NCBI GenBank assembly: GCA_038087875.1
Contig: CM075988.1
Span: 13,580,001 to 13,644,000 of the forward strand
Length of the DNA: 64,000 nt
Direction: 5' to 3'
Origin: Malacoraja senta
Taxonomy: Eukaryota
Part shown: positions 10,601 to 51,072 of the stretch, piece after piece
How the letters are laid out: each line of letters opens with the position of its first letter
Numbering within the stretch: the stretch's first letter is position 1
Translations under genes and position numbers: made by a program
The notes under the pieces: generated by a model
Seen by the model: the letters and a program-made list of their open reading frames with translations, nothing else
Databases searched by the model: none
What the model was told of the DNA's origin: nothing

Positions 10601-10754
10601 TCAGCACAGTGCCTTTGAACCCAGGCTTTAGTGACTTACAACGGGAACTATGTGTGTGAAATTTAAGAATCTAATAGCTGAGACTCTGCTATCCTGTTGA
10701 GAATTCTGATTTGTGCCAAGAAATAGTTTGTTGCTTTCTGTTACAAAAGCAACA

Positions 10755-10837
10755 GGGGGGCTGTGGATGGCTATGGATCAGCGTTCTCGTTGCGCCCCCC
10801 GTCAGTACCCAGGCTCGCCTGGGGAAGCCAATGATCC
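10755..10837 (+). ncRNA. HDV-like (CPEB3-type) self-cleaving ribozyme
   Basis: P1 GGGGGGC/GCCCCCC; P2 GGAUCA/UGAUCC; P3 GCG/UGC; L3 UUCUCGU; J1/4 GUCAG; P4 CCCAGG/CCUGGG; J4/2 GCCAA with putative catalytic C10828. Confidence 0.88.
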
Positions 10838-11274
10838 TTCCAGCAGACTAAATTCTACAAGACGACGCCTGAGAGCCAAGTCAAAGAATCCTAGTCATTA
10901 TCCCAAAGCCGAAAGCAGCGACAACGACCAGCCTCAAGAGCACCTAGCAGTTGGACCTGCTCTCCGAAAACTACAGCTGAATGTTGAAGGCCTCTCTGCA
11001 GCCAAGCGACGCCTCATCGAAGTCCTCGCCCACCAACACTTCATTGACGTCATCTGTCTATTCAGGACTGGACATGGCCCCTGCTTGGCCAGCCTTCACA
11101 AATGGGGCAGCAGCCCAACCCGACGGTGTGCTTGTGGAGAGCAGCAAACAATGTGACACATCATCATCATTGAAGCATGCCCTCAAAAAAGTCTTAAAGG
11201 AGGACTTGTCACCCTTCATACAGCAGATCAAGAGGCAACTGCTTGGCTAAAGGACTTTGCATTCGCTAAATAAA
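10755..11274 (+). mobile_element. Internally deleted non-autonomous Vingi (Ingi-clade) non-LTR element
   Basis: APE start LQLNVEGLS..K..I..L..H..DVICL fused directly to C-terminal FRTGHG..LHKWG....CACGEQQTM*HII..CP; TAAA tail; TSD TGTTACAAAA (10739-10748, 11275-11284). Confidence 0.8.
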
Positions 11275-13403
11275 TGTTACAAAACTACAAGGTAAACTTA
11301 TCCATCCAATTTTGTGTAGCAAAACAAAAATACACAAGGAATAGACTGAATGCCATAACAATCATAGTTCTGTAACTGCACAGCACTCATTCCCCTTCTT
11401 ACTTTTTAACAGTGAAATTTTGTCTTGAACTTCAGCCACAGCAATCATAAAGTGTTGACCTGAAAGGGATTATTATAACCTGAGGACCCATTCTTCAGAG
11501 CAAGTGAAGAGGAGAGAGATTGCTAGTAAGGTTCATGAGGCAGGGCTGGGTGGAGTGAAAGACAATTGAAGCACAAGTGTCTTGGTCACATTTTTAAGTC
11601 TAAACTCTGTTAAAGTTAATAGATCCCAGAGACTTCAAATGGATGCACAAACATAATTGAAGTCAGTGCTTGAAGGACCAGCGTCATTAATTTCTTTGCC
11701 AAATGGAATTCATTTCAAGTATGGCTGGTAATTTTGAGTAGACGAGTTTTTTTTTTAATTTGTCAACATTGCCAACATACATTGTGTGTGAACTTGCTAT
11801 TTTGCTCAAGCATCAAATAATCTTTTGTGCCTTGTTACTGTGCATTATTTACTCAGTGAAAGCATGAGCAGTAGGGTTTCCAAGAAGTTGGAAGAGAGAC
11901 AATGAATTCATAAGGTTTGAGAAATGTGAAAGTTTGAGTTCCCAGCAAAACATTATGCGAAGAAGTTCGAATGTAGAACCAGTCAATCCTTTGATTGTGG
12001 TCTTTCAGTTGACTAGGAACAAAAACATAATCTGTCAAGTAGATGTGGGGATCATAATGTATGAATAAGTCATGCCTGATTTCAATGAAAGCTGTAGACT
12101 TGCTTTGTGCTTTTTATTCATTGTAAAAGACTGTGCATGCAGCCAGTGGTAACAGTGTAGCTGGTTGCACACACCATCAGGGTCTGAATAATGCAATGCA
12201 CCAATTAAAGCAAGTGAGCACCCTTCTGGGGATTCTTCTCAGCTAGCCCTTGGAGTTGAGGATGACTTGCCACTGTTCCAGTTCTGAGCAATCTTAATCC
12301 CGTAGAAAGTCTGCAGATTATGTTACAGGTGGAGCAAATGGCGTTTCATGGGCCAAACGGATGGAATTTTTGTTTTGTTGCACAAGCTTGTGCTTGGCCT
12401 TCAGGTGATCGTCTCACAAAGACGCAAACTCTTGACTTTCCCAGATACTTCTCCACTGGTTTGATCACTGTTGGTCTGAGGATTTCTGTGCATTCCTGAG
12501 GGAAAGAGAAACCATGAGTTTCCCGTCTGTCAGCGATTGGCAGTGGCGATTCACAGTTTAACTGTGGTGAGTTGGAGAGATGTTCCTTAATCAAACAGAA
12601 CTAGGAGACTCCAAATACACTCAGCAGCATGAGAGCAGATAATTCTGGAAGTCAACAACAGACCTTCAGTGTATAGCTGGTTCAAGTCGGAATAAAATTG
12701 CTCTACAATCTTGCACCATTCTGCTGTTTTGCACTCATTGTCATATTTATTGTTGCATTCATCATTACTGTATGCATTGCTCTGTGAACTTTATGTGAAC
12801 AAATAATTTCACTGCACCTAACTGGTGTATAGGCCAATAAACTGAATTCACCACAATCCTTTCACTCACCTTCAACAATTGTTTAAGACTGTATGTGACA
12901 GTTCATGCTCAAACAATGAGAACTGCAGCATACAGATCTCACTGCTTGAACGTACTGCCAACTAATGAAATGTGACAGATACATCATCCAAGTAGATTAA
13001 TCAACTTATTCTTGTAACAGTGCCCTGTAACTTGCCCAAGGCAGTATTTGAAACCAAACCATCTTCGGCAGCTTCATCAGTGGCTTTCTCTGCATTATAA
13101 AGTCAGAAATGGGGTGATTATTGCTTATTGTTACGTCTTATCAATCAGTGTTTAAACACTGTAACCTGATCATCGATGCACATTAAGCTTTAGGGTTAGG
13201 TTTTGAAAAGCTTTGTTTTGCATGATATCCAAACATAGACATACCATGCATGCATACATACACACAATCAAGTCAAACCTATGTACAATAGATAGAGCAA
13301 AGGGGAAGGTACAGAGTGCAGAATATAGTTCTCAGTATTTAATGCATTGTAACACATCAGTTCCATAGACAGATTCCAATGTCCACAATGGGGTAGTGGT
13401 GAA

Positions 13404-14873
13404 TTGGACAGTATCCCCGTTTATGCACGCTTTGATAATGTCACCCCGCCATCCATGCCTCCCCCCCCACCTAACTCAGCACCATTCACCATCTCTGAGG
13501 AGGTAGTGAGGGCGGCCTTCAAAAATCTTAATAAAAGAAAAGCGGCAGGGCCAGACGACCTCAGCCCCGCTGCTCTTAACCACTGTGCAGCTCAGCTGGC
13601 TCCTGTGTTCACCTCCATCTTTAACACTTCCCTCAGCCAAGGTAGAGTCCCGCAGTGTTTTAAGGCATCCATTATCATCCCTGTGCCCAAGTCCTCCAAG
13701 GTGAGCTGTCTGAACGATTTTAGACCTGTTGCACTAACATCAGTTGCCATGAAGGCCTTTGAGCACATAGTCCTCACCCATCTGAAAACATACACTGTCC
13801 CCATCATGGACCCTTTTCAATTTGCATACAGCGCCAACTGGTCTGTGGAGGATGCTATCAACCTAGCTCTTCACTACTCCCTACATAATTTGGAATCACC
13901 GAACACTTATGCACGCATCCTGTTTATAGATTTTAGCTCGGCCTTTAATACTATACACCCAATTAAACTCTACAATAAACTGTTGGACATGGGCATTCAC
14001 CTAGCCATGTGCCATTGGATTTTACATTTTCTTACAAACAGACAACAAAGAGTCAAGGTGGGTGAAAAACTCTCCAGCCCTCTGACTATCAATACAGGAG
14101 CCCCTCAAGGGTGCGTTCTGTCACCTCAGCTCTTCTCACTTTACACCAACAACCTCACATCCCAATACAGCTCAGTTAAAATTTTCAAATATGCAGACGA
14201 CACGACAATAATTGGCCTCATCTCAGACAACAATGAATCACAATACCATCAAACAGTGGACAGCGCAGTCAAATGGTGCGCAGAAAACAACCTCCAGCTT
14301 AACACCTCAAAAACCTTAGAAACCATCATAGATTTCAGACGCAAACAAAACCTCAAACCCGCGGTCCATGTCAACTCCCATCCCATAACCTCCACGAACT
14401 TATTTAAGTTTCTGGGCACCTATATCTGCAATAATCTAAAATGGCACATCAATGCTGACCACATCATTAAGAAAGGACAACAACGCCTATACTTCCTCAG
14501 ACAGCTCAAGAAGTTCAGAGTCCACAAACACCTCCTGGTACGCTTCTATCAATCCATCATTGAAAGCATCATCACCTCCTCAATCACAGTCTGGTACGGA
14601 AACACTGACAGTCACTCACTACACAGAATACAGCGCATTGTCTCCAAGGCCTCTAGGATCATCAACTCTCCCCTCCCCTCAATCCATTCCATTTACCTCC
14701 AACGTACCTCAAAACGGGCAACAAAGATCATCTCGGACCCCTCCCATCCAGCAAACCACCTTTTCCAGTCTCTCCCTTCAGGGAGGCGCCTTAGGTCACT
14801 TGCTACAAAATCCACCCGTTTTAAAAACAGTTTCTTCCCCTCAGCAATAAGAGCACTTAATTCCCTCCAATAA
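13404..14873 (+). CDS. Rex1-type reverse transcriptase ORF, 5'-truncated (first codons come from the flank)
   Basis: [40 protein letters not shown] motifs; C-terminal LPSGRR...KNSFFP. Confidence 0.9.
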   Translation: MDSIPVYARFDNVTPPSMPPPPPNSAPFTISEEVVRAAFKNLNKRKAAGPDDLSPAALNHCAAQLAPVFTSIFNTSLSQGRVPQCFKASIIIPVPKSSKVSCLNDFRPVALTSVAMKAFEHIVLTHLKTYTVPIMDPFQFAYSANWSVEDAINLALHYSLHNLESPNTYARILFIDFSSAFNTIHPIKLYNKLLDMGIHLAMCHWILHFLTNRQQRVKVGEKLSSPLTINTGAPQGCVLSPQLFSLYTNNLTSQYSSVKIFKYADDTTIIGLISDNNESQYHQTVDSAVKWCAENNLQLNTSKTLETIIDFRRKQNLKPAVHVNSHPITSTNLFKFLGTYICNNLKWHINADHIIKKGQQRLYFLRQLKKFRVHKHLLVRFYQSIIESIITSSITVWYGNTDSHSLHRIQRIVSKASRIINSPLPSIHSIYLQRTSKRATKIISDPSHPANHLFQSLPSGRRLRSLATKSTRFKNSFFPSAIRALNSLQ

Positions 14874-17539: not shown

Positions 17540-18813
17540 TCACTTCTACCTACTTGAGTGCCTGGCAATTAGCAGATGGAGGGGATTATTGGATCTTCTA
17601 TTTTACTGGAAGTTCTCGTGGTGAGTATTTGTGTTAACCCTAAGATGCAAAATGCTGGCTTTAACTATCGACAAAATTAATGAAGAAGTGGATTTTTTTA
17701 CAGACATTGCTTAATTTACTTAAAATCAATGCCATTATCTGAAGCAATTTTTACAGGTTTTGCAAAATTTAAATCATCTCGCTACAGAAGTCCTTCTGAT
17801 ATGATTAAGTTCCGGCAGTAAATTGTTGCGTGTTCTTTTGCCAATTAGAATTTAGCCTGGGTGATTGACATGTTTGACCTTCAAACATGCTTTTCAGTCT
17901 CCGAGCTTGTGGATTCTGGAGGATTGTACACAAGCATCTATTATTGTTTGATTAATTATACATAGAGGAAGGCAACAATGGTAATTTGTGATGAAGCAAA
18001 GGTTAAACTCAGCATCAAACTATCAGATGTTCTGTGCAACACCAGAGAGTGGTTTCATTTCCTAAACCAAGCTTCCGATGAATACAACACCTCCAGTATA
18101 CAGATGCTCCAATCAGCATTCAGTCATGGTGCTTGAATTTCAAAGGACGGTAAATTGGTATTTAAAATTCTTTGTCATGTGGAATTAGTTGAATTCATTT
18201 CGAAGAACATTCTTAAATAAAATTGGGCACGCAACATTCATCTTTCTTTCTCCAGGGAGAAAAAATGATTATCCTTTCCTATTTAGCTGAAACTCAAGAC
18301 AACCTGTTAGAGTTGGACTGATTGTAGCTATTGTGGAGAACAGCTCTGAAATCATGCTCTGATATTTGTGTGAAGATGGCAGGTTAGAAAAGCAGATCAA
18401 AAAAATGCAAGTTGCATTGTGTCGGTCGTGCCTTGGAATATAGAGTTGTCTTTCAGTTGTCTTTCAGGCAGAGTCACCAATTGCTAAAAGGTAGCTGGTG
18501 GTCTCTGCGACTTGTAATGTCCCCTATACGTCCGACGCATCAGAAATACGTTGCTGATTCAGAATCCTGGACCTCCATATCCAACAACATTCCCTAGGAC
18601 ATTGAGGGAAGTTAGTGTAGAAATAGCAGGGGCTATGACAGAAATATTTCAAATGTCATTAGAAACGGGAATAGTGCCGGAGGATTGGCGTACTGCGCAT
18701 GTTGTTCCGTTGTTTAAAAAGGGTTCTAAGAGTAAACCTAGCAATTATAGACCTGTTAGTTTGACGTCAGTGGTGGGCAAATTAATGGAAAGGATACTTA
18801 GAGATAATATATA

Positions 18814-20429
18814 CAGTGGCTTGCAAAAGTATTCATACCCCTTGAACTTTTCCACATTTTGTCACGTTACAACCACAAACGTAAATGTATTTTATTGGGA
18901 TTTTATGTGATAGACGAACACAAAGTGGCGCATAATTGTGAAGTGGAAGGAAAATGATACATGGTTTTCAAATTTTTTTACAAATAAAAAACTGAAAAGT
19001 GTCGCGTGCAAAAGTATTCAGCCCCCCTGAGTCAATACTTTGTAGAACCACCTTTCGCTGCAATTACAGCTGCAAGTCTTTTGGGGTATGTCTCTACCAG
19101 CTTTGCACATCTAGAGACTGAAATGTTTGCCCATTCTTCTTTGCAAAATAGCTCAAGCTCAGGCAGATTGGATGGAGAGCGTCTGTGAACAGCAATTTTC
19201 AAGTCTTGCCAGAGATTCACAATTGGATTTAGGTCTGGACTTTGACTGGGCCATTCTAACACATGAATATGCTTTGATCTAAACCATTCCATTGTAGCTC
19301 TGGCTATATGTTTAGGGTCGTTGTCCTGCTGGAAGGTGAACCTCCGCCCCAGTCTCAAGTCTTTTGCAGACTCTAACAGGTTTTCGTCAATGATTGCCCT
19401 GTATTTGGCTCCATCCATCTTCCCATCAACTCTGACCAGCTTCCCTGTCCCTGCTGAAGAAAAGCATCCCCACAGCATAATGCTGCCACCACCATGTTTC
19501 ACAGTGAGGATGGTGTGTTCAGGGTGATGTGCAGTGTTAGGTTTCTGCCACACATAGCATTTTGCATTTAGGCCAAAAACTTCAATTTGGTCTCATCTGA
19601 CCAGAGCACCTTCCTCCACATGTTTGCTGTGTCCCCCACATGGCTTGTGGCAAACTGCAAACGGGACTTCTTATGGCTTATTTTCAACAATGGCTTTCTT
19701 CTTGCCACTCTTCCATAAAGGCCCGATTTGTGGAGTGCACGACTAATAGTTGTCCTGTGGACAGATTCTCCCACCTGAGCTGTGGATCTCTGCAGCTCCT
19801 CCAGAGTTACCATGGGCCTCTTGGCTGTTTCTCAGATCAATGCTCTCCTTGCCCGGCCTGTCAGTTTAGGTGGACGGCCATATCTTGGTAGGTTTGCAGT
19901 TGTGCCATACTCTTTCCATTTTCGGATGATGGATTGAACAGTGCTCCGTGAGATGTTCAAAGCTTGGGATATTTTTTTATAACCTAACCCTGCATTAAAC
20001 TTCTCCACAACTTTATCCCTGACCTGTCTGGTGTGTTCCTCGGGCTTCATGATGCTGTTTGTTCACTAATGTTCTCTAACAAACCTCTGAGGCCTTCACA
20101 GAACAGCTGTATTTATACTGAGATTAGATTACACACAAGTGGATTCTATTTACTAATTAGGTGACTTCTGAAGGTAATTGGTTGCACTGGATTTTATTTA
20201 GGGGTATCAGAGTAAAGTGGGCTGAATACTTTTGCACGCGACACTTTTCAGTTTTATATTTGTAAAAAAATTTGAAAACCATGTATCATTTTCCTTCCAC
20301 TTCACAATTATGCGCCACTTTGTGTTGGTCTATCACATAAAATCCCAATAAAATACATTTACGTTTGTGGTTGTAACGTGACAAAATGTGGAAAAGTTCA
20401 AGGGGTATGAATACTTTTGCAAGCCACTG
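18814..20429 (-). mobile_element. Full-length Tc1/mariner transposon, Passport-like, IR/DR type
   Basis: About 210-bp TIRs starting CAGTGGCTTGCAAAAGTATTCA, inner direct repeat TGCAAAAGTATTCAGCCC, TA duplication (18812-18813, 20430-20431). Confidence 0.97.
19032..20050 (-). pseudogene. Tc1 DD34E transposase, inactivated
   Basis: [46 protein letters not shown] (catalytic E to V); stop at 19832 and frameshift near 19585. Confidence 0.95.
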
Positions 20430-22380
20430 TATAAGCATCTGGATAAGCAGGGTCTGATTAGGAACAGTCAACATGGATTTGTGCCTGGAAGGTCATGTTT
20501 GACTAATCTTCTAGAATTTTTCGAAGAGGTTACTAGGGAAATTGATGAGGGTAAAGCAGTGGATGTTGTCTATATGGACTTCAGTAAGGCCTTTGACAAG
20601 GTTCCTCATGGAAGGTTGGTTAAGAAGATTAAATTGTTGGGTATTAATGGTGGAGTAGCAAGATGGATTCAACAGTGGCTGAATGGGAGATGCCAGAGAG
20701 TAATGGTGGATGGCTGTTTGTCAGGTTGGAGGCCGGTGACTAGTGGGGTGCCTCAGGGGTCTGTGTTGGGTCCACTGTTGTTTGTCATATACATCAATGA
20801 TCTGGATGATGGTGTGGTAAATTGGATTAGTAAGTATGCAAATGATACTAAGATAGGTGGTGTTGTGGATAATGAAGTAGATTTTCAAAGTCTACAGAGA
20901 GATTTAGGCCATTTGGAAGAGTGGGCTGAAAGATGGCAGATGGAGTTTAATGCTGATAAATGTGAGGTGCTACATCTTGGCAGGACAAATCAAAATAGGA
21001 TGTACATGGTAAATGGTAGCAAATTGAGGAATGCAGTTGAACAGAGGGATCTAGGAATAACTGTGCATAGTTCCCTGAAGGTGGAATCTCATGTAGATAG
21101 GGTGGTAAAGAAAGCTTTTGGTGTGCTGGCCTTTATAAATCAGAGCATTGAATATAGAAGTTGGGATGTAATGTTAAAATTGTACAAGGCATTGGTGAGG
21201 CCAATTCTGGAGTATGGAGTACAATTTTGGTCGCCTAATTATAGGAAGGATGTCAACAAAATAGAGAGTACAGAGGAGATTTACTAGAATGTTGCCTGGG
21301 TTTCAGCAACTAAGTTACAGAGAAAGGTTGAACATGTTAGGTCTTTATTCTTTGGAGCGCAAAAGGTTAAGGGGGGACTTGATAGAGGTCTTTAAAATGA
21401 TGAGCGGGTTAGACAGAGTTGACGTGGATAAGCTTTTCCCATTGAGAGTAGGGAAGATTCAAACAAGGGGACATGACTTGAGAATTAAGGGACAGAAGTT
21501 TAGGGGTAACATTAGGGGGAACTTCTTTACTCAGAGAGTGGTAGCTGTGTGGAATGAGTTTCCAGTGGAAGTGGTGGAGGTAGGTTCGGTTTTATCCTTT
21601 AAAAATAGATTGGATGGGTATATGGACGGGAAAGGAATGGAGGGTTATGGTCTGAGTGCAGGTAGATGGGACTAGGGGGAAGAAAGAAGGGGGAGAAAAA
21701 AAAAGTGTTCGGCACGGACTAGAAGGGCCGAGATGGCCTGTTTCCGTGCTGTAATGGTTATATGGTTATATGGTTAACATTGTGGGAGTGCTTTTATAGA
21801 ATGAACTGTAGTGCTTCTGCAATAAGTGACCATTACTTTCTGAAGACTGATTAGAGTTGGGAAATACAGTCATAAAGTCATGAACATGCTCCATGGCTCA
21901 TCGAACCTATGCCGACCATCAGCCGACCCATTTACACCAATCCTACATTAATCCCATGTTTTTTATTCTCTCTTTTTTCTCAACTACACCCACCTCCTTG
22001 CCACTCAGCATCCAGAATCCACCACTTACCTACCCAATTAGAGTAGCCAATTCACCTACCAACTCGCAGGTCTTTGTATATGGGAGGAAATCTGTCTGGT
22101 CACAGAGACAACAGGCAAACATCACATGGATAAAATGTTGCTCATATCCTCTGAATGAAAATAAACTAATGTCCCATCTGCCATCTCATGCGGATATAAT
22201 TGGCTTTACTTTGAGGAGGCATCATATTTATTTCATCACAAGCAGCAGATTACCTGCAGATTATCACATTGCTGTTTGTGAGATCTTGTTGTATGTAAAT
22301 TGGCTGCCGTGTTTTCTCTCTTGCATTTATGGACTGACTTTCAATGCACTATCTATTGTTAAATGTTTTGTGATGTGTTG

Positions 22381-28744: not shown

Positions 28745-30100
28745 TTCAGATTCAGATTCAGATTCAGATTCAGATTCAGATCAGATTCAGATCAGATTCA
28801 GATTCAGATTCAGATTCAGATTCAACTTTATTGTCATTGTGCAGTGTACAGTACAGAGACAACGAAATGCAGTTAGCATCTCCCAAGAGCGACATAAATA
28901 TGAGCAGTAAATAAATAAATCTAATAAATCCTGGTGGGAGGAGTGTCCGGGGGGGGGGGGGGGGGGGTGTGATTGGCAGTCACCGAGGTACAGTGTTGAG
29001 TAGTGTAACCGCCGCAGGGAAGAAGCTGTTCCTGGACCTGCTGGTCCGGCAACGGAGAGACCTGTAGCGCCTCCCGGATGGTAGGAGGGTAAACAGTCTG
29101 TGGTTGGGGTGAGAGCAGTCCTTGGCGATGCTGAGCGCCCTTCGCAGACAACGCTTGCTTTGGACAGACTCAATGGTGGGGAGTGAGGAACCGGTGATGC
29201 GTTGGGCAATTTTCACCACCCTCTGCAGTGCTTTCCGGTCGGAGACAGAGCAGTTGCCATACCATACTGTGATGCAGTTGGTAAGGATGCTCTCGATGGT
29301 GCAGCGGTAGAAGTTCACCAGAATCCGAGGAGACAGATGGACCTTCTTTAGTCTCCTCAGGAAGAAGAGACGCTGGTGAGCCTTCTTGACCAGAGTTGAG
29401 GTATTGTTGGTCCAAGAGAGGTCATCGGAGATGTTGACCCCCAGGAACCTGAAGCTGGAAACACGTTCCACCTCCCTCCCGTTAATGTGGATGGGGGTGT
29501 GCATGCCGCCCCTAGACTTCCTGAAGTCTACAATGAGCTCCTTGGTCTTCTTGGAGTTAAGGGCCAGGTTGTTGTCAGCGCACCATGCTGCCAGGAGCTG
29601 GACCTCCTCCCTATAGGCCGACTCATCGTTGTTGCTGATGAGGCCAATCACCGTTGTATCATCTGCATACTTGATGATGGTGTTAGTACCATGTACAGGT
29701 GTGCAGTCGTAGGTGAAGAGGGAGTAGAGGAGGGGGCTCAGCACACAGCCCTGTGGAACGCCGGTGTTCAGGGTGAGGGTTGAAGAGGTGTGCTTGTCTA
29801 ACCTAACAGACTGGGGTCTGTTGGTTAGAAAGTCCAGTATCCAGTTGCAGAGGGAGGGGTCGATGCCCAGGTCACCGAGTTTGGTGATCAGTTTAGAGGG
29901 TATGATGGTGTTGAATGCTGAGCTGTAATCGATGAACAGCATTCTTACGTAAGTGTCTCTGTTGTCGAGGTGGGAGAGGGCGGAGTGAAGTGCCGTTGAG
30001 ATGGCATCCTCCGTACTCCTGTTCTTGCGGTAGGCAAACTGATAGGGATCCAACGTGGGGGGTAGGCAGCCTTTGAGGTGTGCCAGGACCAGCCTCTCGA
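28745..30100 (-). mobile_element. 5'-truncated Rex1 LINE with expanded (TCTGAA)n tail (28745-28824)
   Basis: RT ORF, 3' UTR, AATAAA and hexamer tail. Confidence 0.92.
28980..30053 (-). CDS. Rex1 reverse transcriptase ORF, truncated
   Basis: [42 protein letters not shown]...NSFFP; no internal stops. Confidence 0.9.
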
Positions 30101-33100
30101 GTCAACCATCAGAAGTGGGTAGTGTTCTTCATAGACAAGTGATTGGCTACTTTATCACCCTTCCAAGTTACAGCATCATTTTCTAACAGCACAGATCCCT
30201 CTCCAGAGATTTAGAACCCTTAAATTATTTGTCAAATGGGTAAATAAATCAAAGTAAAGTGGAGGGGGGGGGGGGGGGGATGTTTGAATTAGAGAAATAA
30301 TGAAAATTTTAAAAATCCATTAAAAAGCTCCATAGATGTTGAAGATTTAATCAATTAATTAAAATGTTGATTTTCAGCCTACTGTTTTGTTGCAATTAAT
30401 TAAAACGTTATCTTTAATAGGATGCTTATTGTACAATAGAGAATTTGCAGCTTTTTCAGATGAGATTGGCTCCTGTCTGATGTCAAACTGGTTGAAGAAG
30501 AGCCCCGACCCAAAATGTCACCTACCCATGATGTCCAGAAATGTTGCCTGACCCACTGAGTTATACCAGCACTTTGTGTCCTATTGATCTCAACCATTTG
30601 ATGTGTGTTCCTGTATGATATACCATGCTCTTAGTTTCTGATGAAGAAGGATATTAGATACCACCACCATGTAGTGACTGCTCCATTTTGGGGCTTTTTC
30701 TGCAGCAGAAATTAGACAGTAATTTGAATGGAAACCACAATAATTTGCCATAAGTAGAGACTTTACATTATGTATGCTAGAAATGGTAATAGATTATTCC
30801 AAGTAGAAACAAGCTTAATATAATGTTTTTCACATTGTTACTTGTGATTGATAATTTTGATTTACTTTTAATGATTTTTTTTCTATTATGGATATGGATA
30901 AGATTGGTTATGAGTGATTCTGCTTTCATTTTATATTAGCTGAAGCAAACCTTTTTATGCTTGACAATAGATTACAAGATAACCTCTTTGTGCACCAAAA
31001 TAAATGATTGATCCTTTATGAAAAAATAATACGAATGGTGCACTTGACATACAGGGAAGGTAGTCTGGATTAATGGGCTTCACTCCAGAGGGGATTAAGC
31101 TATGTTTATCCCCTTTCTAGGTTGCCACTGGAGACTTGTGTATGGCAACCAGCATAACATGCAGAAAATAGCTTTCAACCAGTAAGTGATGAATGTGCAA
31201 ACCACAGAAACTCAGTTAATGCAACCCTCCCTTTGTGGCCAGGCATAATTATATTTTTGTTAACTGTAATAAAACTGCATTGTATGAAATTGCCAAGGAC
31301 TAAATGAAATGATGTATTTGTTAGACTGCTGAAGATTAGGGTCTACAGTTTGCATCAACAGAAACACCGTGCAACCAACAAAATATATCTCTCAGTGTAA
31401 TTTACCGGGAACATCTGGCACTCCTTCTGTTAAACAGAATACATTACCATCATTAACCAGACTTGCATCAAGTTACAATCCTCATCTGTACTTTTGCTAC
31501 AAAACTTTCACACTTCTTCTCACCTATGCAGTGCTTCTCTTGGGTCAAAGTAAAGGTTCCAATGGCACAATTTCAACTAAGAGGGTGAGAACTACCTTCA
31601 ATGTTCTGTGAGATAATATTTGATCCTCAATCACTTAAATAACTTTTCCACAGTTTTCCTTGTTGAAATGGTTGTGCTACATTCGCAACAAAAACCCCTT
31701 GAAAAAGTATTTTATTGGTTGCATGCAATTTGGAATATCCTGAGCTCACAAAAAGTGCTATCAAAAATGCAGGTGTGTCTTTTTTCTTCAAATGATAGCA
31801 AAAATAAACGCATTAAGCACACAATGGACATCTTCCACTATCACTACCTGAATATCACAAAATACTGTGAATATATTTATATTTGAAGCAGGATTGCGAA
31901 GATTGGTAACCTTAACTAGGTTTTAACTGGAGGTAAATGTGATTGTAAATTGCAGGATGAAAAGTGTGATCATATTATGCATGTATGAATGCATGCATGC
32001 ATGTATCTATATTACATTACAAATGGGAACTTATGCTTGGAAATATTTTCAAGGCTGGAGAAAAACCCTTGGGGTTTGGTTCAAACTCATGATGTTCTTT
32101 GAGTTAACCTTGAATGTGCTCCACACTATCAATTATTCTCTATGTGGCACATCAGGAGGTTCAGAAACAAGCATAAATCACAAGAAGAAAACAGAAATAA
32201 ATGTATTAACACTTGCTGAACCCTTCCTACTCTGCCTCAGGATACCACACTGTTAAACATTTTCATTCACCTGAAAATAGCAGTTTGTTAAACGTCGTGT
32301 GTGTGAACCATTCTGGCGACCACTCAGTGAATTATGAATTCTGGTTTTGCCCATGTATTTTTTAAATTGCAGAAAAAAACAAGAGTTAAATCACAAATCA
32401 TTTTAAACTGTACAATGTGTGGAGAAGGTTATTGTTTGTAGATATGATATAATTGTTAGGCAATTATGTAAGGCAGACTGGATAGCACCAAAAGCTTTTC
32501 ACTGTACCTCGGTACACCTGACAATAAACTGAATTGAACTTATTCATTATGTAAAGGTTGTACCATGGATCTGTGCAAGTATTAGTCAGGTGCTGGATAG
32601 CAGTGTATCACCTTTCTCACCATCCCATTCTTGGTGAGACTGTTCACCGGGTGCAGTAAAGCAACAAATTTATCTGAATAATATGCAGGTCCTCACCAGG
32701 TTACGACAGAGTTCTGTTCCTGAGAACTATCGCAAACAGTTCGCAAGTCAGAAATGTGGCTTCCTGGCAATACATTTAAATAAAAATATAGGCTAACCAA
32801 GGGCAGCGGGTAGTTAAGCCAGGCCATTTAGTTCAACCATTTCAATATGGCCATAAGCCAAATTTCCACACAGCAGAAGATACCCACAGTCCCACAGCAG
32901 CTGGCAAACCCATCCTGTTGGGTCTCTCAAACGCTCATTCCCATGAATGGGAAGTCAGACATTGGTAACCTGGAGATGAACTGTACCAGAAAACTAAGTT
33001 TGGGAAAAGCATTGATATCACCATCTGGACTTGCAGACTGAGAGTTTTCTGGTCAGCTGCATTTAACACTTCTTGGATACCACTTTGGCCAGCATCAACT

Positions 33101-49763: not shown

Positions 49764-50002
49764 CTCTCTGGCTGTATTTTTTTAAAGTAATTCATAGATT
49801 GTAAAAAAGATGGCAATGTCAGCAGTTATTATCCCTCCCTATTTGCCCTTGAAATGCATAGCCACTTAATAGTCAATCACGTCAGTACATCTGGAGTCAC
49901 TTGTAGGTCGGGTAAGTACGGTAGACTTCAAGCCTGAATGGAGATTAGTTTTTAATGGTTTTTTTAAGCAACAATTCAATTGTTTCATGATCAGCATTAC
50001 TG

Positions 50003-51072
50003 GGAGTAAACGGGTCCTTTTCACAATGGCAGGCAGTGACTAGTGGGGTACCACAAGGCTCAGTGCTGGGACCCCACCTATTTACAATTTATATTAATGA
50101 ACTGGATGAGGGAATTGAAGGCAACATCTCCAAGTTTGCGGATGACACTAAGCTGGGGGGCAGTGTTAGCTGTGAGGAGGATGCTAGGGGACTGCAAGGT
50201 GACTTGGATAGGCTGGGTGAGTGGGCAAATGTTTGGCAGATGCAGTATAATGTGGATAAATGTGAGGTTATCCACTTTGGTGGCAAAAACAGGAAAGCAG
50301 ACTATTATCTAAATGGTGGCCGATTAGGAAAAGGGGAGATGCAGCGAGACCTGGGTGTCATGGTACACCAGTCATTGAAAGTAGCCATGCAGGTGCAGCA
50401 GGCAGTGAAGAAGGCGAATGGTATGTTAGCTTTCATAGCAAAAGGATTTGAGTATTGGAGCAGGGAGGTTCTACTGCAGTTGTACAGGGTCTTGGTGAGA
50501 CCACACCTGGAGTATTGCGTACAGTTTTGGTCTCCAAATCTGAGGAAGGACATTATAGCCATAGAGGGAGTGCAGAGAAGGTTCACCAGACTGATTCCTG
50601 GGATGTCAGGACTTTCATATGAAGAAAGACTGGATAGACTCGGCTTATACTCACTAGAATTTAGGAGATTGAGAGGGGATCTTATAGAAACTTACAAAAT
50701 TCTTATGGGGTTGGACAGGCTAGATGCAGGAAGATTGTTCCCGATGTTGGGGGAAGTCCAGGACAAGGGGTCACAGCTTAAGGATAAGGGGGAAATCCTT
50801 TAAGACCGAGATGAGAAAAAACATTTTCACACAGAGAGCGGTGAATCTCTGGAACTCTCTGCCACAGAGGGTAGTTGAGGCCAGTTCATTGGCTATATTT
50901 AAGAGGGAGTTAGATGTGGCCCTTGTAGCTAAAGGGATCAGGGGGTATGGAGAGAAGGCAGGTACGGGATACTGAGTTGGGTGATCAGCCATGATCATAT
51001 TGAATGGCGGTGCAGGCTCGAAGGGCCGAATGGCCTACTCCTGCACCTATTTTCTATGTTTCTATGTTTCTA
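50003..51072 (+). mobile_element. 5'-truncated CR1 LINE (RT ORF 50036-50803, frameshift near 50750)
   Basis: GVPQGSVLGP, FADD, RPHLEYCVQFWSP; (TTCTATGT)n tail. Confidence 0.92.

What the first reader, a model, noticed from the sequence alone, without database searches (positions are those of the whole stretch)
10755..10837. Complete CPEB3-like HDV ribozyme forming the exact 5' end of a non-autonomous Vingi retroelement
Seen: the full nested pseudoknot can be paired. P1 GGGGGGC(10755-61)/GCCCCCC(10794-800); P2 GGAUCA(10775-80)/UGAUCC(10832-37); P3 GCG/UGC around L3 UUCUCGU; GUCAG; P4 CCCAGG-CUCG-CCUGGG; J4/2 G-C10828-C-A-A. The target duplication (TGTTACAAAAGCAACA vs TGTTACAAAA-CTACA) ends right before G10755, the predicted cleavage position. 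Established: L3, GUCAG and J4/2 closely resemble the mammalian CPEB3 ribozyme, and HDV-like ribozymes head R2, RTE and Ingi/L1Tc elements. Inference: a self-processing 5' end lets this element be released from host transcripts, and an active intronic copy could cut a host pre-mRNA. The ribozyme class is known; whether this elasmobranch family is described I cannot tell.
Basis: partly seen in the sequence, partly recalled or inferred. Interest (0 to 1): 0.85.

Follow-up and report, generated by a model that had tools for sequence, protein, structure and literature searches.

The report
Self-cutting RNA heading a jumping gene
The flagged 83 bases are a hepatitis-delta-type self-cutting RNA motif at the very start of a short, internally deleted copy of a jumping gene (LINE); this use is known, but the motif is strikingly like the ribozyme in the mammalian CPEB3 gene.

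Summary
My own strict HDV descriptor hits only this site in the window; 1 of 100 shuffles gave any hit. The motif heads a 520-bp element (10755-11274) with flanking target duplications. The element is an internally deleted derivative of a ~2.95-kb endonuclease plus reverse-transcriptase LINE. Its deletion junction recurs at 28 other places.

In 24 of 32 distinct copies the shared sequence starts at the P1 G-run, and the upstream flanks are unrelated. Five sister families in the same genome match Rfam's "mammalian" CPEB3 ribozyme model at up to 64 bits (cut-off 35) and show compensatory changes in P1, P2 and P3.

Cleavage was not shown; RNA reads gave no verdict. This copy carries a 10-nt duplication in J1/2, so its own activity is doubtful. 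"Vingi" fits the architecture and the heads of named Vingi elements printed in a 2018 supplement, but no reverse-transcriptase tree was possible. "Elasmobranch" and "intronic" were not confirmed.

It is a new member of a known kind. A bolder lead is that the mammalian CPEB3 ribozyme descends from a Vingi head.

The parts
10739..10754 (+). Upstream copy of the target-site duplication (TGTTACAAAAGCAACA). Alternatively, a 10-nt duplication plus 6 extra bases at the 5' junction.
   Evidence: The matching copy lies at 11275-11289.
10755..10837 (+). HDV-like (CPEB3-type) ribozyme motif. It is 83 nt here and 73 nt in relatives without the duplication.
10755..10761 (+). P1 5' strand (GGGGGGC). G10755 is the predicted first base after the cut. 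It pairs with 10794-10800.
   Evidence: Copies start at the G-run.
10759..10778 (+). 10-nt tandem duplication (GGCTGTGGAT / GGCTATGGAT) that lengthens J1/2 from 3 to 13 nt. It is private to this locus and its assembly twin.
   Evidence: The native nested fold lies 6.1 kcal/mol above the MFE here, against 0.5 in a copy without the duplication.
10775..10780 (+). P2 5' strand (GGATCA). It pairs with 10832-10837 (TGATCC).
   Evidence: P2 covaries between families.
10781..10793 (+). P3 (GCG/TGC, with G10783-T10791 wobble) around L3 TTCTCGT. Most relatives have C at the place of T10791.
   Evidence: L3 columns are invariant or nearly so in 31 rows.
10794..10800 (+). P1 3' strand (GCCCCCC).
10801..10805 (+). 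GTCAG. G10801 can pair with C10786 of L3 (a single-pair P1.1).
   Evidence: The P1.1 assignment is by analogy with HDV and CPEB3 and is inferred.
10808..10823 (+). P4 hairpin: CCCAGG, loop CTCG, CCTGGG.
   Evidence: It is part of the MFE.
10824..10831 (+). J4/2 (GAAGCCAA). C10828 lies at the place of the catalytic cytosine.
   Evidence: The C, A, A columns are invariant in 31 of 31 aligned heads.
10832..10837 (+). P2 3' strand (TGATCC).
10755..11274 (+). The whole bipartite non-autonomous LINE copy. It joins 305 nt of the 5' end to 215 nt of the 3' end of the autonomous relative.
11059..11060 (+). Internal-deletion junction, in frame.
   Evidence: junction shared by 28 other places. (loose ends at 11059 and 11060 continue into full-length sequence). 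(frame).
10767..11156 (+). Remnant fused reading frame that starts at an ATG inside the ribozyme and ends at a TGA.
   Evidence: 8 of 8 and 7 of 8 RNA reads with the first mate on the minus strand, and 4 of 4 on the plus strand, read other letters at 11154-11155.
11265..11274 (+). 3' end TAAATAAA. Other copies extend it as TAAA-type repeats.
11275..11289 (+). Downstream copy of the target-site duplication (TGTTACAAAACTACA).

Best explanation
The 83 nt form the head of a LINE family whose RNA begins with an HDV-like, CPEB3-type self-cleaving ribozyme.

Inferred mechanism: the element is transcribed as part of a longer transcript. The nested double pseudoknot folds, and the cytosine in J4/2 (C10828 here) helps cut the chain just 5' of G1. 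This releases an element RNA whose first base is G10755. In autonomous relatives the first AUG lies at nt 9-11 of that RNA, so the ribozyme also encodes the first ~24 residues of the single endonuclease-RT protein. The protein then copies the RNA into new sites by target-primed reverse transcription, which leaves target duplications that abut the G-run.

Shown: the window copy is a bipartite derivative (5' 305 nt plus 3' 215 nt) that belongs to a propagated non-autonomous subfamily, presumably mobilised in trans.

The 10-nt duplication in its J1/2 most likely arose at its own insertion, so this copy is probably a weakened or dead ribozyme while its source RNA had the normal 73-nt form. The fold, covariation, 5'-end clustering and family structure are shown. 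Cleavage, the upstream transcript and trans-mobilisation are inferred.
For: - Pairings and motif. Strict descriptor: 1 hit in the window against 1 of 100 shuffles with any hit.
- Family: at least 40 head matches (40 scored of 95 candidates).
- 5' ends: among 32 distinct places, upstream flanks are 25% identical (random) and the ribozyme onward is 96% identical. 24 of 32 start with the P1 G-run.
- Target duplications abut the G-run in L062, L066, L069, L070, L071 and the window (6 of 7 complete subfamily copies).
- Covariation on 31 distinct heads of six families (A2): 88.9% of 495 cells are paired, against 38.8-54.0% with slid partners. 61 cells have two-sided changes (0 of 500 shuffles reach this; slid 9 or fewer). 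The covariation score is 0.359, against 0.127 or less when slid. P2 pair 12/77 occurs as UA, AU, GC and CG (own script agrees).
- Rfam CPEB3 model on the genome: 39 of 60 listed matches are at or above the 35-bit cut-off, best 64.2. Duplication-free relatives of the window copy score 19.8-27.9 bits in 7 of 10 loci.
- Autonomous relative L031: two adjoining open frames of 589 and 388 aa with Exo_endo_phos and RVT_1, and no RNase H.
Against: - No cleavage data exist.
- Raw polyA RNA reads (70 laid, run X24) show no pile of starts at G1. Three reads of a variant copy run about 50 nt upstream past the G-run, so uncut RNA, read-through of dead copies or DNA carry-over exists.
- Rfam gathering thresholds are not reached by this family.
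- The nested MFE is not better than shuffles.
- The cut-site pair is G-C rather than the G-U seen in the sister families (pair 1/37).
- 17 of 17 G-run copies outside this subfamily have A at P1 position 6 opposite C.
- In this copy the native nested fold is 6.1 kcal/mol above the MFE.
- The six families give few independent events, so shuffle counts overstate significance.
Confidence: 0.82

Rival explanations
1. The head is kept for another job (internal promoter, translation start, RT recognition or 5' protection). On this view the 5' end at G1 is set by transcription initiation, not by self-cleavage, and the HDV-like fold is a relic or has a second role. L1Tc is a precedent: its first 77 nt are both promoter and ribozyme.
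For: - The abstract of PMC3383444 (listing) describes the dual Pr77/ribozyme system.
- The ORF starts inside the ribozyme, so coding constraint also conserves it.
- There is an A-C mismatch in P1 of the autonomous-type copies.
- Three RNA reads cross the predicted cut site.
Against: - Compensatory changes keep P1, P2 and P3 paired across families with different coding sequences.
- The catalytic C and the two A's of J4/2 are invariant in 31 of 31 heads.
- In the non-autonomous subfamily the ATG is lost in 5 of 8 copies while the helices stay, which argues against coding as the main constraint.
Confidence: 0.1
2. The family ribozyme is real, but this particular copy is dead. The 10-nt duplication and the P3 G-U wobble favour misfolds, so it neither processes itself nor cuts any host transcript.
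For: - The duplication is private to this locus and its assembly twin.
- The native nested fold is 6.1 kcal/mol above the MFE here, against 0.5 in L003.
- The Rfam HDV model prefers the poorer second P1 strand GGATGGC.
- The copy has a private TGA stop.
Against: - All helices and core bases are intact.
- J1/2 length is variable in HDV-like ribozymes (recalled, not tested).
- Pseudoknot energies are not modelled.
Confidence: 0.5
3. The element is not a Vingi but belongs to another endonuclease-type LINE clade (for example RTE or an unnamed relative) that also has a compact single ORF and an HDV-like head.
For: - No RT tree with reference clades could be built.
- Database relatives carry no clade names.
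- RTE also makes bipartite derivatives and has predicted 5' ribozymes.
Against: - Heads of the sister families, and less closely of this family, match the heads of named Vingi-2_Gav, Vingi-4_Crp, Vingi-1_BF and Vingi-2_SPur printed in the supplement of PMC5786205.
- The ORF lacks RNase H and ends in a C-x2-C-x7-H-x4-C motif. That RTE lacks this motif is recalled, not tested.
- Family A protein is about 35% identical to this family's over about 500 aa.
Confidence: 0.2
4. The fold is a chance fit drawn on G+C-rich sequence.
For: The MFE z-score is -0.35. There is no Rfam match at gathering thresholds.
Against: as above.
Confidence: 0.01

Closest known systems
Mammalian CPEB3 ribozyme (Rfam RF00622)
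   Same: - Same nested double-pseudoknot layout.
- In duplication-free relatives J1/2 is 3 nt and P3 is GCG/CGC, both as in the model consensus.
- L3 differs at one of 7 bases (TTCTCGT against UUCACGU).
- GUCAG follows P1, and J4/2 reads C-N-A-A.
- Sister families in the same genome pass the family cut-off (47.7-64.2 bits).
   Different: - It sits at the 5' end of a repeated LINE, not in a conserved intron.
- The P2 and P4 sequences differ.
- The cut-site pair is G-C, not G-U.
- J4/2 is GCCAA, not GCGAA.
- The score is below the cut-off: 11.2 bits for this copy and 19.8-27.9 for relatives.
5' ends of Repbase Vingi elements (Vingi-2_Gav, Vingi-4_Crp, Vingi-1_BF, Vingi-2_SPur) and the alligator SINE2-1_AMi
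   Same: The alignments printed in the supplement of PMC5786205 (compared by eye) show the same order of motifs: G-run, 3-nt linker, 6-nt P2 strand, GCGTTC(A/T)CGTCGC, P1 return strand, GTCAG, hairpin, TGCGAA, P2 return strand. In three of the four elements this starts within 8 nt of the element's first base.
   Different: - That paper treats them as 5'-UTR similarity and does not call them ribozymes. Its list of clades with 5' ribozymes omits Vingi.
- This family's P1, P2 and P4 sequences differ from theirs.
- I could not put those sequences into tools.
L1TcRz of L1Tc/NARTc (Ingi clade, Trypanosoma cruzi)
   Same: An HDV-like ribozyme in the first 77 nt of a LINE and of its non-autonomous partner (abstracts of PMC3185411 and PMC3383444 seen in listing). 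Ingi is the sister clade of Vingi.
   Different: The L1Tc head is also an internal promoter, the host is a protist, and Ingi has an RNase H domain. Sequences were not compared.
R2 and RTE/LOA 5' HDV-like ribozymes
   Same: The role is the same: self-processing of the element RNA from a longer co-transcript, with non-autonomous internal-deletion derivatives (introduction of PMC3774820, passages).
   Different: R2 is site-specific in rDNA and uses a restriction-like endonuclease, and its cleavage often lies upstream of the junction. Ruminski 2011 could not be read.

Membership tests
HDV-like self-cleaving ribozymes | Nested double pseudoknot: P1 and P2 crossing, P3 inside P1, and P4 after P1 | tested here: met
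   All helices are present at 10755-10837. P1, P2 and P3 are kept by compensatory changes across six families. Each family has its own P4 hairpin except family E, which has none. P4 covariation was not counted.
HDV-like self-cleaving ribozymes | Catalytic cytosine in J4/2 followed by N-A-A | tested here: met
   C10828-C-A-A. The C, A, A columns are invariant in 31 of 31 heads.
HDV-like self-cleaving ribozymes | L3 with a C able to form P1.1 with the G after P1 | tested here: met
   C10786 and G10801. L3 columns T, T, C, C and T are invariant. The pairing itself is inferred.
HDV-like self-cleaving ribozymes | G-U wobble at the base of P1 (as in HDV and CPEB3; the feature is recalled) | tested here: not met
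   The window family has G1-C. Across the alignment the pair is GU in 10, GC in 6 and AU in 1 row, with 14 unpaired rows that are mostly 5'-altered genomic copies.
HDV-like self-cleaving ribozymes | Self-cleavage 5' of G1 | not testable with these tools
   Indirect only: 24 of 32 copies begin at the G-run. RNA reads gave no start pile.
Rfam CPEB3_ribozyme (RF00622) | Score at or above the 35-bit gathering cut-off | tested here: not met
   The window copy scores 11.2 bits. Relatives score 19.8-27.9 bits in 7 of 10 loci, none at 35 or above. Sister families A-E do pass: 39 of 60 listed matches.
Rfam CPEB3_ribozyme (RF00622) | Single-copy position in an intron of the CPEB3 gene, conserved in mammals | tested here: not met
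   The sequence is repeated and flanked by target duplications.
Vingi clade of non-LTR retrotransposons | RT-domain phylogeny: sister to Ingi | not testable with these tools
   No reference sequences were at hand. Homologue names give no clade. Kojima 2011 is not held.
Vingi clade of non-LTR retrotransposons | Compact single ORF with endonuclease and RT and no RNase H (as stated in PMC13708176) | tested here: met
   L031: about 2.95 kb, frames of 589 plus 388 aa separated by one stop, with Exo_endo_phos and RVT_1 only.
Vingi clade of non-LTR retrotransposons | Gives bipartite non-autonomous derivatives by internal deletion (PMC5786205) | tested here: met
   Junction 11059|11060 is shared by 28 other places. 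Other breakpoints also occur in the family.
Vingi clade of non-LTR retrotransposons | 5' end like that of named Vingi elements | tested here: inconclusive
   The comparison with the supplement alignments was by eye only. It is close for families A-D and partial for the window family.

The most novel reading that the evidence does not exclude
The CPEB3-type sequence may be the ancestral 5' head of the whole Vingi clade, and the ribozyme in the mammalian CPEB3 intron may be an exapted head of a Vingi element or of a Vingi-derived non-autonomous element or SINE.

- Heads in this non-mammalian genome reach 47.7-64.2 bits on the 'mammalian' model, including parts of P4 that the fold does not constrain.
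- Named Vingi heads from gharial, crocodile, amphioxus and sea urchin read the same way.
- The human genome keeps a Vingi fossil, X12_LINE.
- Two papers state that the CPEB3 ribozyme is unknown outside mammals, and one adds that outgroups are lacking.
- No paper found in searches links the two.
Probability: 0.55. Interest if true: 0.8.

Novelty: new member of a known kind. Interest (0 to 1): 0.5.

Why it matters
HDV-like ribozymes that trim the 5' ends of LINE RNAs are established for several clades. This adds a family that looks like Vingi, a clade missing from the 2018 list of clades with 5' ribozymes.

Two points go further:
- Vingi-1 of the green anole is being developed for gene insertion, and its native 5' UTR is kept in driver and donor RNAs. 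If that UTR is a self-cleaving ribozyme, it sets the true RNA 5' end and should be designed around.
- The sequence-level likeness of these heads to the CPEB3 ribozyme offers an origin, and outgroups, for a mammalian ribozyme implicated in memory whose ancestry is described as unknown.

Tried and rejected
- Rfam at gathering thresholds on the window: no match.
- Nested thermodynamic fold: not better than shuffles.
- Relaxed descriptor (P1 with up to 1 mismatch, P2 at least 5 of 6): three further sites in the window, against a mean of 0.71 in shuffles. None has the L3 motif. Two are the inverted ends of a Tc1-like transposon, so they were dismissed.
- First MAFFT alignment A1 misplaced the 3' strand of P2 for this family and the P1 of the duplicated window copy. 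It was replaced by A2, which leaves the window row out.
- Four of 50 heads failed my anchor parse and were dropped (L030, L045, L056, L055). Fifteen rows with identical helices were collapsed.
- RNA evidence: one raw polyA run, about 6% read, 70 reads laid. It shows no start pile and gives no verdict on cleavage.
- Clade naming through protein names failed. The best named relatives are 'hypothetical protein' entries of a teleost eel and of arthropods.
- Host gene context: 94 ORFs of at least 85 aa gave only transposon domains. Short exons would be missed.
- Earlier notes of this scan: none for this genome and none on Vingi.
- Two literature searches were badly framed and returned unrelated papers.
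- Not held, so not read: Webb 2009, Ruminski 2011, Webb and Luptak 2011, Kojima 2011. They may already state a retrotransposon link for CPEB3-like sequences.
- The host lineage ('elasmobranch') was not tested.

Full report
**Observation.**
- P1: 7 Watson-Crick pairs, 10755-10761 with 10794-10800.
- P2: 6 pairs, 10775-10780 with 10832-10837.
- P3: GCG/TGC around the 7-nt loop TTCTCGT.
- GTCAG follows P1.
- P4: a 6-bp hairpin at 10808-10823.
- J4/2: GAAGCCAA, with C10828 at the place of the catalytic cytosine.

A strict descriptor of my own finds this one site in the 64-kb window on both strands. Of 100 dinucleotide-preserving shuffles, 1 gave any hit.

Weaker signals must also be stated. Rfam at gathering thresholds finds nothing in the window. 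In E-value mode the HDV model gives 22.6 bits (cut-off 50) and the CPEB3 model 11.2 bits (cut-off 35) at this site. The nested minimum-energy fold is no better than shuffles.

**What the copy is.** The motif is the first 83 nt of a 520-bp element (10755-11274). The element ends in TAAATAAA and is flanked by a 16/15-nt target duplication (10739-10754 and 11275-11289; one indel, one mismatch).

A near-full-length relative (locus L031) is about 2.95 kb. It has two adjoining open frames of 589 and 388 aa separated by one stop. They carry an Exo_endo_phos endonuclease domain and RVT_1, and no RNase H. Its first ATG lies at nt 9-11 of the head, so the ribozyme also encodes the first ~24 residues.

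The window copy joins the first 305 nt to the last 215 nt of such an element, in frame, at 11059|11060. That junction is present at 94-100% identity in 30 of 40 scored matches (241 candidates). These are the window itself, an assembly twin on another contig, and 28 other places. It is therefore one member of a propagated bipartite non-autonomous subfamily, not a one-off deletion.

**Is G1 the 5' end?** Among 38 fetched copies with the core, 32 lie at distinct places; 6 duplicates with identical flanks were dropped.
- The 50 nt lying 10-60 nt upstream of the head are 25% identical on average, which is random. The 50 nt from P2 onward are 96% identical.
- 23 copies, plus the window copy, begin with a run of at least 3 G at the P1 position.
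- The other 8 are shortened by a few bases or carry short 5' duplications. None shares sequence further upstream.
- In the non-autonomous subfamily, target duplications abut the G-run in 6 of 7 complete copies. Four of 12 fetched loci lack the head, as expected for 5'-truncated insertions.

**Is the fold selected?** The Rfam CPEB3 model run over the whole assembly listed 60 matches (59 candidates scored out of roughly 100,000 from the first look). Of these, 39 are at or above the 35-bit cut-off, with a best of 64.2. The 30 fetched loci fall into five further families. Each has unrelated flanks up to a G-run and its own P1, P2 and P4 sequences; one family lacks P4 altogether.

An alignment of 31 distinct heads from six families was anchored on L3 and on the J4/2 motif, not on pairing. 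The window row was left out because of its duplication.

| Measure | Structure as given | Partners slid by 1-3 columns | Shuffles reaching it |
|---|---|---|---|
| Cells paired (of 495) | 88.9% | 38.8-54.0% | 0 of 500 |
| Cells with two-sided change | 61 | 9 or fewer | 0 of 500 |
| Covariation score | 0.359 | 0.127 or less | 0 of 500 |

Six of 16 pairs show two-sided changes, and one P2 pair occurs as UA, AU, GC and CG (my own count agrees). Six families give only a handful of independent events, so these numbers show consistency, not a p-value.

The catalytic C and the two A's of J4/2 are invariant. Family A encodes a protein about 35% identical to this family's over about 500 aa directly behind its ribozyme. 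Families C and D include deletion derivatives.

**This copy in particular.** Relatives read G-run, 3-nt linker, GGATCA. The window copy has a 10-nt tandem duplication (10759-10768 / 10769-10778), which makes J1/2 13 nt long, and a T at 10791 that turns one P3 pair into G-U.

Short 5' duplications recur at heads: 5 of 32 places in this family, and a five-fold one in family A. That fits template jumping at the end of reverse transcription, so the duplication probably arose at insertion.

The native nested fold lies 6.1 kcal/mol above the MFE in this copy, against 0.5 in a duplication-free copy. I rate its own activity at about even odds or less.

All 6 G-run copies of this subfamily, plus L003 from outside it, have a fully paired P1 (GGGGGGC). 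In contrast, 17 of 17 other G-run copies of the family have A at position 6, opposite C.

**Expression.** One raw polyA RNA run, of a species that holds the family but not these flanks, laid 70 reads on the element and none on the flanks. There was no pile of starts. Three reads of a variant copy extend about 50 nt upstream of the G-run. This neither shows nor excludes cleavage.

**Context.** Among 94 window ORFs of at least 85 aa, only reverse-transcriptase and Tc1-type transposase domains were found. I saw no evidence for a host gene or intron, though short exons would be missed. The host lineage was not tested.

**Comparison with what is known.**
[quoted passage not shown] Vingi is not in the ribozyme list.
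- The supplement of the same paper prints the 5' ends of Vingi-2_Gav, Vingi-4_Crp, Vingi-1_BF and Vingi-2_SPur aligned to an alligator SINE. By eye they have the same motif order as the heads found here.
- A 2026 review describes Vingi-1 as a compact single-ORF element without RNase H, sister to Ingi, and mentions ribozymes only for R2.
- Literature searches: 'HDV-like' with 'Vingi' gave 1 paper; 'Vingi' with 'ribozyme' gave 6; 'Vingi' with 'retrotransposon' gave 37; 'CPEB3-like' gave 1. None reports a Vingi ribozyme by title, abstract or the passages I read.
- Webb 2009, Ruminski 2011, Webb and Luptak 2011 and Kojima 2011 are not held. The sea-urchin and amphioxus ribozymes of 2009 may well be these same heads.

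The finding is thus a new member of a known kind.

**The bolder lead.** Heads of sister families align to the 'mammalian' CPEB3 consensus over nearly its whole length, including parts of P4. Two papers say the CPEB3 ribozyme is not found outside mammals, and one adds that outgroups are lacking (passages read). The human genome keeps a Vingi fossil, X12_LINE. A Vingi head exapted in the CPEB3 intron would explain all this. I could not test it on mammalian DNA.

Noticed in passing
Own genome, loci L032-L061 (e.g. L032:1501-1584 -, L036:1501-1589 -, L047:1501-1570 +): Five further LINE families carry heads that pass Rfam's 'mammalian' CPEB3 ribozyme cut-off (up to 64.2 bits). 39 of 60 listed matches are at or above 35 bits, out of roughly 100,000 first-look candidates.
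   Followed up: partly
L052, L054, L058-L061 (family E): A minimal form of the head has no P4 at all. After P1 come about 6 nt, then ACCAA and the P2 return strand.
   Followed up: no
L005-L030, base before the G-run: A T precedes the G-run in 15 of 23 copies. In subfamily copies with clear target duplications no extra T is seen. This could be an untemplated A added to the cDNA end, or a target preference.
   Followed up: no
window 10759-10778; L007, L015, L017, L021; L042:1483-1682 (-): Short tandem duplications of the first 10-27 nt of the head recur at 5' junctions: 5 of 32 places in this family, and a five-fold array in family A.
   Followed up: partly
L008, L018, L025-L028, L066, L070: Eight of 32 copies are internal-deletion derivatives with several different lengths whose frame still runs from the ATG position in the ribozyme to the native stop (...DFAFAK or ...DFAFTK). 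In the window's subfamily the ATG itself is lost in 5 of 8 copies.
   Followed up: no
L031:5560-6726 (-) protein: The RT part is 73-86% identical to 'hypothetical proteins' annotated in a teleost deep-sea eel and about 47-50% identical to arthropod proteins. This means a wide or patchy distribution, and horizontal transfer cannot be judged without knowing the host.
   Followed up: no
window 18889-18983 (+) and 20260-20354 (-), around 19035-19831 (-): Two near-identical inverted ~95-nt ends flank Tc1-type transposase ORFs (DDE_3, HTH_Tnp_Tc3_2). Reverse-transcriptase frames lie on either side (18518-18907 and 20382-21284).
   Followed up: partly
window 13353-14870 (+), 28983-30101 (-), 49991-50800 (+): Other LINE reverse-transcriptase fragments. 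Two of them also match Pfam ALKBH8_N just after RVT_1. The window is transposon-rich.
   Followed up: no
window 11060-11275: The 3' 215 nt of the element also occur, with 13 differences and other sequence in front, in an RNA contig of a different organism's run (X5). The tail may be shared with other non-autonomous elements or species.
   Followed up: no
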